Translations under genes and position numbers: made by a program
Notes under the pieces: model-generated
What the model was told of the DNA's origin: nothing
The model's input: only the letters and a program-made list of their open reading frames with translations
The model's database searches: none
Assembly (NCBI RefSeq): GCF_003018235.1
Contig: NZ_CP027437.1
Origin: Escherichia coli
GTDB taxonomy: Bacteria > Pseudomonadota > Gammaproteobacteria > Enterobacterales > Enterobacteriaceae
Strand: one strand, 5' to 3'
DNA length: 64,000 nt
In this document: positions 33,680 through 34,239 of the stretch, one piece after another
Numbering within the stretch: the first letter of the stretch is position 1
Layout: the number at the start of each line of letters is the position of its first letter

Positions 33680-34239
33680 AGGATGAATTCCTTTTCATAA
33701 TCCCGATACGTTGATAATTACAGTACAATCATTTTTTTTATGAATGATTAGAGTGGGGCATATCCGCCAAATAAATTTGTTAGAGAATTTTTGTATTAAT
33801 GGGTTGTGCGAATATGTTTTTAAGTGTCAAACAATTTTAGTTTGTAGCCAATAAATAAATTGATCGCGCGGATTTTAATGATCGGTGTCAATCAATGTCA
33901 AATGTTTCACCGGATAAAGGCCCGGGGCAGGGAAAGATAAATATTCAGTTGAGTGATGTTTTATTGCGAATTTTGCGATGCTGATAGAAAAATTTAAATA
34001 ATTAATTATGTTTCAAGCATTGATATGCGGCAATTCATTGTTAATATTGATACATCATTCTTTAATTTGTACCTGATTTTCAGAATTTAGCCTGCTCCGG
34101 GCGCTCAGAAGTGTAGGTGGCGTTGAATATATAATGTTAAGAACGTTATAAATATTCGATCTCTGAAACAGGCTCCTGCATGTGCCAGCAGGAGCGAGTA
34201 AATCGTGAGTGGCTGTAATTACAGCGACGAGAAAGGAAC

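What the first reader, a model, noticed from the sequence alone, without database searches (positions are those of the whole stretch)
33680..34239. Long AT-rich regulatory region upstream of the sadB-like/adhesin operon
About 560 bp of strongly AT-rich non-coding DNA with many A/T tracts precedes the lipoprotein-adhesin operon. This composition is typical of nucleoid-protein-silenced promoters of horizontally acquired adhesin genes, which would explain why such adhesins are cryptic under laboratory conditions.
Basis: inference. Interest (0 to 1): 0.35.

Follow-up and report, generated by a model that had tools for sequence, protein, structure and literature searches.

The report
Known H-NS-silenced upaG adhesin promoter region
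This 560-bp AT-rich spacer is the control region of the E. coli sadB-like/UpaG-EhaG adhesin operon, whose repression by the nucleoid protein H-NS is already published, so the finding is real but ordinary.

Summary
Window 33680-34239 is exactly the non-coding gap between the yibL stop and the start of a SadB-like lipoprotein gene. That gene is followed by a 1724-aa trimeric autotransporter adhesin, the UpaG/EhaG locus of E. coli, all on the minus strand.

The gap is 35.4% GC against 49.7% for the window. That is close to other intergenic gaps here (mean 39%). Its length is the unusual feature, and A/T homopolymer tracts are not in excess.

Comparison of nine deeply divergent alleles and taxa (E. 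coli types, E. marmotae, E. fergusonii, Salmonella, Pseudocitrobacter) shows these parts:
- yibL terminator hairpins
- a conserved distal element, TCTGAAAA
- an AT-rich site previously proposed for the regulator TosR
- a conserved sigma-70-type promoter (TTGACA-18-TAAAAT)
- a leader of about 186 nt at 29% GC

H-NS silencing is the best explanation, but it is already in the literature. hns deletion derepresses upaG in CFT073, whose region is 93% identical, and TosR overproduction induces the sadB-like gene c4423.

The "horizontally acquired" part is not supported. The locus keeps its position across genera, the variable module is 50% GC, and K-12 lacks the whole module (published as a deletion).

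Side finding: the window's sadB-like gene carries a private +1 frameshift.

Novelty: already known. Interest is low.

The parts
34240..34602 (-). yibL CDS (120 aa). This is the upstream neighbour. Its stop codon defines the right edge of the region and is also the breakpoint of the K-12 gap.
   Evidence: ORF. Pfam DUF2810, E=6e-32. RefSeq annotation of a 99.9% identical locus. The K-12 alignment ends at 34239.
34172..34228 (-). 3' end of yibL, with two hairpins. The first is 34228->34209 (GUCGCUGUAA/UUACAGCCAC). The second is GCUCCUGC-N8-GCAGGAGC at 34195->34172. This is the probable terminator or 3' stabiliser, but its U-tract is weak.
   Evidence: Fold of 34239->34155: -27.8 kcal/mol, z=-3.7, 0 of 200 shuffles fold as well. 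Inverted repeat I4. In the 31-column island that holds the second hairpin, 29 columns are invariant among four Escherichia alleles that are ~67-70% identical overall. The stem is kept by changed bases in Pseudocitrobacter (CTCCTGT...ACAGGAG). The consensus terminator scan did not call it.
34077..34090 (-). Conserved distal element ('block b'): TAAATT followed by TCTGAAAA. Its function is unknown. It may be a -10-like hexamer (NAWAWT) of a distal promoter, or a regulator site.
   Evidence: TC(T/C)GAAAA is present in all 9 alleles/taxa, 171-182 bp upstream of the invariant TTTGACA. 0 of 500 shuffles give a shared 8-mer at matching distance. It is not sigma-E and not SlyA. The pattern is not enriched elsewhere in the window.
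33981..34009 (-). AT-rich 29-mer ATAATTAATTATTTAAATTTTTCTATCAG. It overlaps the longest A/T-only run of the region (33988-34009). It corresponds to the putative TosR (PapB-family) binding motif reported upstream of CFT073 c4423.
   Evidence: PMC5956150 Table S2 gives ATAATTAATTATTTAAATTTTCAATCAG, 299 bp upstream of the c4423 ATG, MEME P=7.4e-7. W-run list. The CFT073/window alignment shows a substitution at 33986, and the printed motif has a shorter T run. c4423 = C_RS20890, the DUF3251 gene next to upaG.
33872..33901 (-). Predicted sigma-70 promoter P1 of the sadB-like/adhesin operon. The -35 is TTGACA (33901->33896), the spacer is 18 bp, and the -10 is TAAAAT (33877->33872). A GC-rich discriminator CCGCGCG follows. 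The predicted TSS is about 33865/33864.
   Evidence: 11 of 12 consensus match, the best in the region. The homologous site is the top sense-strand hit in ZH063, O145:H28, Salmonella and E. fergusonii. TTTGACA and ATTA..AT are invariant in all 9 sequences although flanks are unalignable. The TSS is not mapped; this step is inferred.
33850..33867 (.). Two overlapping sites that match the H-NS high-affinity motif with 2 mismatches (TAAATAAATT; GCGATCAATT). They cover the predicted +1 to +15.
   Evidence: Motif TCGATAAATT: 4 sites with at most 2 mismatches in the region vs 1.3 +/- 1.1 in shuffles; 22 sites with at most 3 mismatches vs 9.6 +/- 3.2. This is weak, consensus-level evidence only.
33680..33865 (-). 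Predicted 5' leader of ~186 nt at 29% GC, the most AT-rich part of the region. It contains conserved islands ACAAACTAAAAT (33845->33834) and GGATTATGAAAAGGAATTCATCC (33703->33681), with SD AAGGA at 33693->33689.
   Evidence: GC 0.29. Conservation islands. The -10 lies 188-203 nt upstream of the ATG in the five sequences scanned. No significant RNA structure (z=-0.5). No Rfam hit.
32995..33679 (-). SadB-like inner-membrane lipoprotein gene (DUF3251; lipobox LLAGC), 41.5% GC. In this window a +1 frameshift breaks it into 62-aa and 149-aa ORFs. The frameshift is an A5 run at 33493-33497 on the + strand, where relatives have A4.
   Evidence: ORFs. Alignment to strain 118UI, where the CDS is intact at 227 aa. 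PDB 4C47 SadB, E=2e-69. None of 634 genomes with this allele shares the extra base.
27777..32951 (-). Trimeric autotransporter adhesin gene (UpaG/EhaG/SadA positional orthologue), 1724 aa, 53% GC, 43 bp downstream of the lipoprotein gene.
   Evidence: ORF. Pfam ESPR, YadA_head, YadA_stalk x14, YadA_anchor. RefSeq names upaG in CFT073 and ehaG in O157:H7 at the same position.

Best explanation
The region is the cis-regulatory region of the sadB-like/upaG-type adhesin operon. Reading the minus strand from the yibL stop, it contains in order:
1. The yibL terminator hairpins.
2. About 270 bp of AT-rich upstream DNA. This carries a conserved distal element (TCTGAAAA, ~180 bp upstream of the -35) and an AT-rich site of the kind bound by PapB-family regulators such as TosR.
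3. A conserved sigma-70 promoter: TTGACA, 18 bp, TAAAAT.
4. A leader of about 186 nt at 29% GC, ending in the SD AAGGA and the ATG of the lipoprotein gene.

The proposed mechanism is that H-NS coats the contiguous AT-rich tract of about 1.25 kb (promoter, leader and sadB; 38.7% GC). This occludes or traps RNA polymerase at P1, so the operon is silent in culture. AT-rich-DNA-binding antagonists such as TosR, or an unknown signal-specific factor, relieve the silencing.

Shown here: the anatomy, the composition, conservation of the promoter core and the distal element, and identity with the published CFT073 region.
Taken from the literature: hns deletion derepresses upaG, and TosR overproduction induces c4423.
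Inferred: the TSS, that H-NS acts directly on this DNA, and that sadB and the adhesin gene are co-transcribed from P1.
For: - The locus is identified as yibL / DUF3251-SadB / YadA-family adhesin / lldP.
- The window region is 93.2% identical to CFT073 yibL-c4423, with the -35 and -10 unchanged.
- Published H-NS repression: 'hns deletion derepresses upaG' (PMC12525524). UpaG is listed among H-NS-repressed autotransporters (PMC5012682; PMC3966885; PMC6956023).
- c4423 is among the top 25 genes induced by TosR overproduction (value 5.1 in the table), and an AT-rich motif lies 299 bp upstream of its ATG (PMC5956150). That motif maps to window 34009->33981.
- P1 matches the consensus at 11 of 12 positions. 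It is conserved in position (-10 lies 188-203 nt upstream of the ATG) and in sequence across nine alleles/taxa whose flanks are 29-70% identical.
- The tract from sadB through the intergenic region is 61% AT over 1245 bp, and the leader is 71% AT.
- H-NS-motif-like sites are about 2.3-fold over shuffles, and two of them overlap the predicted +1.
- A/T-only runs are enriched, and TpA steps occur at 0.082 per bp against 0.050 in the window.
- Salmonella sadBA is not expressed in culture and was studied only with a replaced promoter (PMC3953254).
Against: - I could not read Totsika 2012. I therefore do not know which DNA fragment was tested for H-NS binding, or whether the effect is direct.
- The composition is ordinary for E. 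coli intergenic DNA.
- No site lies within one mismatch of the H-NS motif.
- A-tracts are not phased, so there is no sign of strong intrinsic curvature.
- The TosR RNA-seq top-25 list contains c4423 but not upaG, so that data set does not show co-transcription of the two genes.
- The TSS is only predicted, and the 18-bp spacer is suboptimal.
Confidence: 0.75

Rival explanations
1. The promoter is simply weak or depends on an activator. The operon is silent because a specific activator or inducing signal is missing in culture. That activator might act at the conserved distal element, or at the repeated ATTGNTTGACAC motif. In this reading the published H-NS effect is indirect or secondary, and the AT-richness is just the normal composition of intergenic DNA.
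For: - The region's GC (0.354) is close to the mean of other gaps in the window (0.39).
- A-tracts are not enriched or phased.
- The 18-bp spacer is suboptimal.
- An invariant distal element sits at a fixed distance of ~180 bp, which suggests a dedicated factor.
- ATTG(A/T)TTGACAC is repeated 61 bp apart, within P1 and downstream of it.
Against: - The literature reports derepression in hns mutants.
- TosR, a general AT-rich binder and predicted H-NS antagonist, induces c4423 strongly.
- The -35 is a perfect TTGACA and the -10 matches 5 of 6, which is not a weak core.
- This reading does not exclude H-NS silencing; the two can co-exist.
Confidence: 0.15
2. The main control is post-transcriptional. 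The long, conserved-length, very AT-rich leader of ~186 nt would be a target for an sRNA, CsrA, RNase E or temperature, and this would keep the lipoprotein and adhesin untranslated.
For: - The -10-to-ATG distance (188-203 nt) is conserved in the five sequences scanned.
- Conserved islands lie inside the leader: ACAAACTAAAAT, and 27 of the 28 columns around the SD and ATG are invariant among the Escherichia alleles.
- GGA motifs lie at and just upstream of the SD.
Against: - The leader has no significant structure (z=-0.5).
- There is no Rfam match.
- The SD-proximal block is not conserved in Salmonella or E. fergusonii.
- No experimental hint was found in the literature searched.
Confidence: 0.08
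3. The gap hides an unannotated gene, either a small protein or an sRNA, and that is why it is long and conserved in length.
For: Seven ORFs of 21-38 aa exist in the gap. The intergenic length is conserved across genera.
Against: - The only peptides similar between alleles lie across the conserved promoter core, occur on both strands, and have shifting starts and stops. That is conservation at the DNA level.
- There are no Rfam hits in the window or in six related loci within the gap.
- No terminator-like site lies inside the gap in the window.
Confidence: 0.02

Closest known systems
upaG (UPEC CFT073) and ehaG (EHEC O157:H7) upstream regions, H-NS-repressed trimeric autotransporter genes (Totsika et al. 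2012, AEM 78:2179; cited in PMC12525524, PMC5012682)
   Same: - Same chromosomal locus: yibL, then a DUF3251/SadB-like gene, then the adhesin gene, then lldP.
- The window region is 93.2% identical to the CFT073 region.
- The P1 core and the distal element are also present in the O157:H7 ehaG-type allele.
   Different: - The window carries its own allele. The adhesin is 1724 aa, against 1778 aa given for UpaG in PMC12525524.
- The window has a private frameshift in the lipoprotein gene.
- The O157-type intergenic region could not be aligned with the window outside the conserved islands. Blastn with the window region and megablast with the O157-type allele each returned their own set of genomes; I did not check the two sets for overlap.
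- I could not read the primary paper to see which fragment it tested.
Salmonella sadBA operon (Grin et al. 2014, PMC3953254)
   Same: - Same synteny between mtl/yibL and lld.
- The lipoprotein is 67% identical and matches the SadB crystal structure 4C47.
- The intergenic length is similar: 526 bp against 560 bp.
- The TTGACA-17-TAGCAT promoter and TCTGAAAA sit at the same relative positions.
- The operon is cryptic in culture.
   Different: - Overall intergenic identity is only 37%.
- The SD-proximal block and the yibL terminator sequence differ.
- No regulator has been reported for sadBA, and its native expression conditions are stated to be unknown.
H-NS/anti-silencer control of UPEC adhesin operons (pap with PapB, tos with TosR/Lrp/H-NS, F9 fimbriae, upaC, upaH)
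   Same: - An AT-rich upstream region, silence in laboratory culture, and derepression in hns mutants.
- Induction by a PapB-family protein that binds AT-rich DNA (PMC5956150; PMC3966885).
   Different: - No regulator gene is linked to this locus.
- GATC sites are not conserved, so there is no pap- or agn43-type Dam/Lrp/OxyR phase switch.
- The adhesin gene and the module as a whole have host-like GC, unlike typical islands.

Membership tests
upaG/ehaG/sadBA locus regulatory region | Lies between yibL and a SadB-family (DUF3251) lipoprotein gene that is followed within ~45 bp by a YadA-family trimeric autotransporter gene, with lldP downstream | tested here: met
   ORFs and annotation of a 99.9% identical locus. 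PDB 4C47, E=2e-69. Pfam ESPR, YadA_head, YadA_stalk and YadA_anchor. CFT073 and O157 records name upaG and ehaG at the same place.
upaG/ehaG/sadBA locus regulatory region | Sequence homology to the region of the strains in which regulation was studied (CFT073) | tested here: met
   523 of 561 aligned positions (93.2%) match CFT073 yibL-c4423. The -35 and -10 are unchanged.
H-NS-silenced promoter | Extended AT-rich tract (roughly 60% AT or more over several hundred bp) covering the promoter | tested here: met
   64.6% AT over 560 bp, 71% AT in the predicted leader, and 61% AT over 1245 bp when sadB is included. This composition is common among intergenic gaps in the window, so the feature has low specificity.
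H-NS-silenced promoter | High-affinity nucleation motif (tCGATAAATT; consensus recalled from Lang et al. 2007, not checked here) | tested here: inconclusive
   No site with at most 1 mismatch. Four sites with at most 2 mismatches (1.3 +/- 1.1 expected) and 22 with at most 3 (9.6 +/- 3.2 expected). Two of them overlap the predicted +1.
H-NS-silenced promoter | Intrinsic curvature from phased A-tracts | tested here: not met
   Homopolymer tracts are not above shuffles. AA/TT autocorrelation shows no peak at lags 10-11 or 21. Curvature is not required for H-NS binding, so this lowers the claim only slightly.
H-NS-silenced promoter | H-NS occupancy, and derepression in an hns mutant | not testable with these tools
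   Literature only: 'hns deletion derepresses upaG' (PMC12525524; PMC5012682). The primary paper is not held. The Lucchini 2006 supplements are not held.
Horizontally acquired (xenogeneic) island | GC content of the acquired segment clearly below the host genome | tested here: not met
   The segment absent from K-12 (27756-34238, 6483 bp) is 50.2% GC against 49.7% for the window. The adhesin gene is 53.1% GC.
Horizontally acquired (xenogeneic) island | Sporadic or variable location, mobility genes, or a tRNA at the border | tested here: not met
   The position is the same between yibL and lldP in E. coli, E. marmotae, E. fergusonii, Salmonella and Pseudocitrobacter. No mobility gene or tRNA is annotated between yibL and lldP in 118UI or CFT073; I did not run the tRNA scan. 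In K-12, 95 bp replace the segment. Roughly 76% of 5426 complete genomes carry some allele. The alleles are very divergent, so allelic exchange by recombination is likely.
Sigma-70 promoter | -35 and -10 hexamers with a 16-18 bp spacer, conserved in orthologous regions | tested here: met
   TTGACA-18-TAAAAT, 11 of 12. The homologous site is the top sense-strand hit in four other loci. The hexamer cores are invariant in 9 sequences. The TSS is not mapped.
Dam/GATC phase-variable adhesin promoter (pap, agn43 type) | Conserved GATC sites in the regulatory region bound by Lrp or OxyR | tested here: not met
   The window has GATC at 33862 and 33880, flanking the -10. The first is lost in CFT073. 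Neither site is present in the ZH063, O145 or E. marmotae sequences.
Structured cis-regulatory RNA leader (riboswitch or thermometer) | Significant, conserved secondary structure or a match to a known family | tested here: not met
   No Rfam match at E<=1. The leader folds at -24.9 kcal/mol, z=-0.5.

The most novel reading that the evidence does not exclude
The invariant distal element (NAWAWT-TCTGAAAA, window 34090->34077) is kept 171-182 bp upstream of the -35 in every allele from Salmonella to E. coli, although the DNA around it is unalignable. It could be the binding site, looping partner or distal promoter of an undescribed dedicated regulator. Such a regulator would supply the natural inducing signal of the cryptic sadBA/upaG/ehaG adhesin operon, a signal that the literature says is unknown.
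Probability: 0.2. Interest if true: 0.45.

Novelty: already known. Interest (0 to 1): 0.15.

Why it matters
UpaG/EhaG/SadA adhesins promote aggregation, biofilm formation and binding to matrix proteins in uropathogenic and enterohaemorrhagic E. coli and in Salmonella. Yet they are silent in culture, and their natural inducing conditions are unknown.

The incremental value here is a map of the control region:
- a promoter core conserved across genera
- an AT-rich leader of about 186 nt
- a previously proposed TosR-type site
- a conserved distal element at a fixed distance

This map tells an experimenter which bases to mutate when looking for the missing inducer.

Tried and rejected
- **Rfam.** No family matched in 32500-35500 at E<=1. 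In six related loci the only hit was an unrelated naRNA4/REP element between mtlA and mtlD of ZH063.
- **Small ORFs.** Seven ORFs of 21-38 aa exist in the gap. The only similarity between alleles lies over the promoter core, on both strands. Rejected as genes.
- **SlyA box TTAGCAAGCTAA at block b.** GGAGCAGGCTAA matches 9 of 12, but 34 such matches occur in the window against 55 expected by chance. Rejected.
- **Sigma-E promoter.** TCTGA is the sigma-E -10 as I recall it from degP and rpoHP3. No GGAACTT-like -35 lies 15-18 bp upstream, with scores of 3/7 or less everywhere except E. fergusonii. Rejected.
- **Dam/GATC phase switch.** The GATC sites are not conserved. Rejected.
- **Homopolymer phase variation at the A8 run (33732-33739).** The run is not a homopolymer in other alleles and is unchanged in CFT073.
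- **Structured leader or SD-sequestering hairpin.** Not significant.
- **CRP, Fis, Lrp, IHF, Cra and sigma-54 at block b or the terminator loop.** Compared by eye only. None was convincing. This was not a formal test.
- **Primary sources.** Totsika 2012 and Valle 2008 are not held. The Lucchini 2006 H-NS ChIP supplements are not held. A search for STM3691 with H-NS found nothing.
- **K-12 yibL-lldP spacer as a marker of the deleted state.** Uninformative, because that sequence is also present downstream of the adhesin gene in carriers.

Full report
**What is at the coordinates**

The window is E. coli chromosome. Megablast of 33400-34400 finds 99.9% identical DNA in many complete genomes. All the relevant genes are on the minus strand.
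- yibL (120 aa, DUF2810) runs 34602->34240.
- A SadB-like lipoprotein gene starts at 33679.
- A 1724-aa YadA-family trimeric autotransporter gene runs 32951->27777, 43 bp downstream of the lipoprotein gene.

The lipoprotein of a near-identical strain matches the SadB crystal structure 4C47 at E=2e-69. RefSeq names the adhesin upaG in CFT073 and ehaG in O157:H7 at this position.

**Is the composition remarkable?**

GC is 0.354 against 0.497 for the window, which puts it in the lowest 8.7% of 560-bp windows. A crude gene map of the window shows that non-coding gaps of at least 100 bp average 0.39 GC, with a range of 0.24-0.56. The composition is therefore ordinary for intergenic DNA.

Other measures:
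- Homopolymer A/T tracts match shuffles (10 vs 8.0 +/- 2.4).
- Mixed A/T-only runs of at least 8-10 bp are modestly enriched, in about 2% of shuffles.
- AA/TT dinucleotides show no helical phasing.

The length is the unusual feature: 560 bp against a median gap of 114 bp. Relatives keep it at 526-560 bp.

**Anatomy by phylogenetic footprinting**

E. coli carries deeply divergent alleles of this gap. Blastn finds the window type and two types about 70% identical to it in 1880 of 5426 complete genomes. A fourth allele, the O157:H7/O104:H4 'ehaG' type, is present in a further 2270. I aligned nine sequences:
- window, CFT073, ZH063 and O145:H28
- E. marmotae and the O157:H7 type
- E. fergusonii, Salmonella and Pseudocitrobacter

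In the seven-sequence alignment, pairwise identity is 61-70% among the Escherichia upaG-type alleles. It is 29-52% for most other pairs. The nine-sequence alignment is. Short islands stand out against this background:
1. Two hairpins just after the yibL stop. The second is GCUCCUGC-N8-GCAGGAGC at 34195->34172. The fold has z=-3.7, and the stem is kept by changed bases in Pseudocitrobacter. This is the yibL terminator or 3' stabiliser.
2. TC(T/C)GAAAA preceded by a -10-like NAWAWT hexamer (34090->34077). It is present in all nine sequences, 171-182 bp upstream of the -35. No shuffle out of 500 reproduces such a shared 8-mer.
3. TTTGACA and ATTA(A/G)(A/C)AT, which are the -35 and -10 of a sigma-70-type promoter (33901->33872; 11 of 12; 18-bp spacer). 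The homologous site is the best sense-strand promoter-like hit in ZH063, O145, Salmonella and E. fergusonii. In these five sequences its -10 lies 188-203 nt upstream of the ATG.
4. ACAAACTAAAAT (33845->33834), and the last 28 nt before and into the ATG. The SD is AAGGA at 33693->33689.

The predicted transcription start is about 33865/33864. That gives a leader of about 186 nt at only 29% GC.

**How it most likely works**

The promoter, the leader and the 41.5%-GC lipoprotein gene form a contiguous tract of 1.25 kb at 61% AT. Sites resembling the H-NS high-affinity motif are about 2.3-fold enriched over shuffles, and two overlap the predicted +1. None is a close match, so this evidence is weak.

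The decisive evidence comes from the literature, not from my tests.
- Papers citing Totsika et al. 2012 state that hns deletion derepresses upaG. They list UpaG among the H-NS-repressed autotransporters of UPEC (PMC12525524; PMC5012682; PMC3966885; PMC6956023).
- The CFT073 region is 93.2% identical to the window, with -35 and -10 unchanged.
- In CFT073, overproducing TosR placed c4423 among the 25 most induced genes, with a value of 5.1 in the table (PMC5956150). TosR is a PapB-family protein that binds AT-rich DNA and is predicted to antagonise H-NS.
- I verified that c4423 is the DUF3251 gene next to upaG.
- That paper's Table S2 places its AT-rich motif 299 bp upstream of the c4423 ATG. 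The motif maps to window 34009->33981, over the longest A/T-only run of the region.
- Salmonella sadBA is likewise undetectable in culture and was studied only after promoter replacement (PMC3953254).

I therefore take H-NS silencing of P1, relieved by AT-rich-DNA-binding antagonists, as the best explanation, with confidence 0.75. The inferred steps are the TSS, the directness of H-NS action on this DNA, and co-transcription of the two genes. On the last point, the TosR top-25 list contains c4423 but not upaG.

**What is not supported**

The 'horizontally acquired' framing fails the tests I could run.
- The operon sits between yibL and lldP in four genera (PMC3953254).
- In K-12, 95 bp stand in place of window 27756-34238, with the breakpoint at the yibL stop. 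Grin et al. describe this as a deletion that includes the lipoprotein gene (PMC3953254).
- That 6483-bp segment is 50.2% GC, and the adhesin gene is 53% GC.

The great divergence between alleles, next to an identical YibL protein, does suggest that the whole module is exchanged by recombination.

**Rivals**

An activator-dependent promoter, or post-transcriptional control through the long leader, could co-exist with H-NS silencing. Neither has direct support. The leader is unstructured (z=-0.5) and matches no RNA family. A hidden gene is rejected. SlyA, sigma-E and Dam-switch readings were tested and rejected.

**Verdict**

The composition alone would not have justified the H-NS reading.

Novelty: already known. 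Interest: 0.15. The one open thread is the invariant distal element at a fixed distance from the promoter, whose function is unexplained.

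Noticed in passing
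window 33493-33497 (within the SadB-like gene, 32995-33679, minus strand): The window has A5 on the + strand (T5 in the gene) where strain 118UI has a run of four. This splits the 227-aa lipoprotein gene into 62-aa and 149-aa ORFs. None of the 634 complete genomes carrying this allele is identical to the window over the 61 bp around the run, so none shares the extra base. It is either a private inactivating frameshift or a homopolymer sequencing error. SadB is reported to be needed for proper surface display of the adhesin.
   Followed up: yes
window 33680-34239 versus L003 7001-7543, L004 7001-7545, L013 1279-1835: E. coli holds at least four deeply divergent alleles of this intergenic region. 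They are 61-70% identical among the upaG-type alleles. The O157/O104 ehaG type could be aligned only at the conserved islands. The flanking YibL protein is identical in 118UI, CFT073, ZH063 and O157:H7 86-24, and the SadB-like proteins differ by up to 33%. About 1880 + 2270 of 5426 complete genomes carry some allele. This suggests cassette-like allelic exchange of the whole module.
   Followed up: partly
L013 1822-1836 (E. coli O157:H7 strain 86-24): The SadB-like gene upstream of ehaG reads ATG AAC TAG, a stop at codon 3. Other strains with the same allele read ATG AAC TTG. RefSeq annotates the CDS from a downstream ATT instead. The window frameshift, this stop and an IS1 insertion in strain fS54a (hit H76) all disrupt the lipoprotein gene, which suggests repeated decay.
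   Followed up: partly
window 27756-34238: In K-12 MG1655 this 6483-bp segment (intergenic region, lipoprotein gene and adhesin gene) is replaced by 95 bp of unrelated sequence containing a REP-like GCCGCATCCGGCAAG motif. The breakpoint is exactly at the yibL stop.
   Followed up: yes
L001 3320-8552 (strain 118UI) versus window 27777-32951: In strain 118UI, which is otherwise 99.9% identical here, the adhesin is annotated as two overlapping CDSs (an ESPR-domain protein and a YadA-family adhesin). The window has one intact 1724-aa ORF.
   Followed up: no
window 30349-31467, + strand: A ladder of antisense ORFs of 62-71 aa starts every 207-234 bp (30349, 30583, 30817, 31051, 31258) inside the adhesin gene. 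It reflects tandem repeats of roughly 234 bp in the YadA stalk/head passenger, where GC rises to 0.57-0.59.
   Followed up: no
window 33824-33835 and 33885-33896: A direct repeat ATTG(A/T)TTGACAC (sense strand) occurs 61 bp apart. One copy lies between the -35 and -10 of P1 and the other at about +30. It is conserved only among the upaG-type alleles. It may be a regulator site.
   Followed up: partly
window 2559-7733, 10948-11914, 44635-45351, 47867-49282: Several stretches are more AT-rich than the finding, with a minimum GC of 0.277 at 5156-5715 and 0.289 at 48723-49282. From the CFT073 gene order, the first probably falls in the waa/rfa LPS-core cluster. On composition alone these are better candidates for H-NS targets or foreign DNA than the region under study.
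   Followed up: no
L003 10292-10369: An naRNA4 (CssrE, REP-derived) Rfam match lies between mtlA and mtlD in strain ZH063. It is unrelated to the finding.
   Followed up: no
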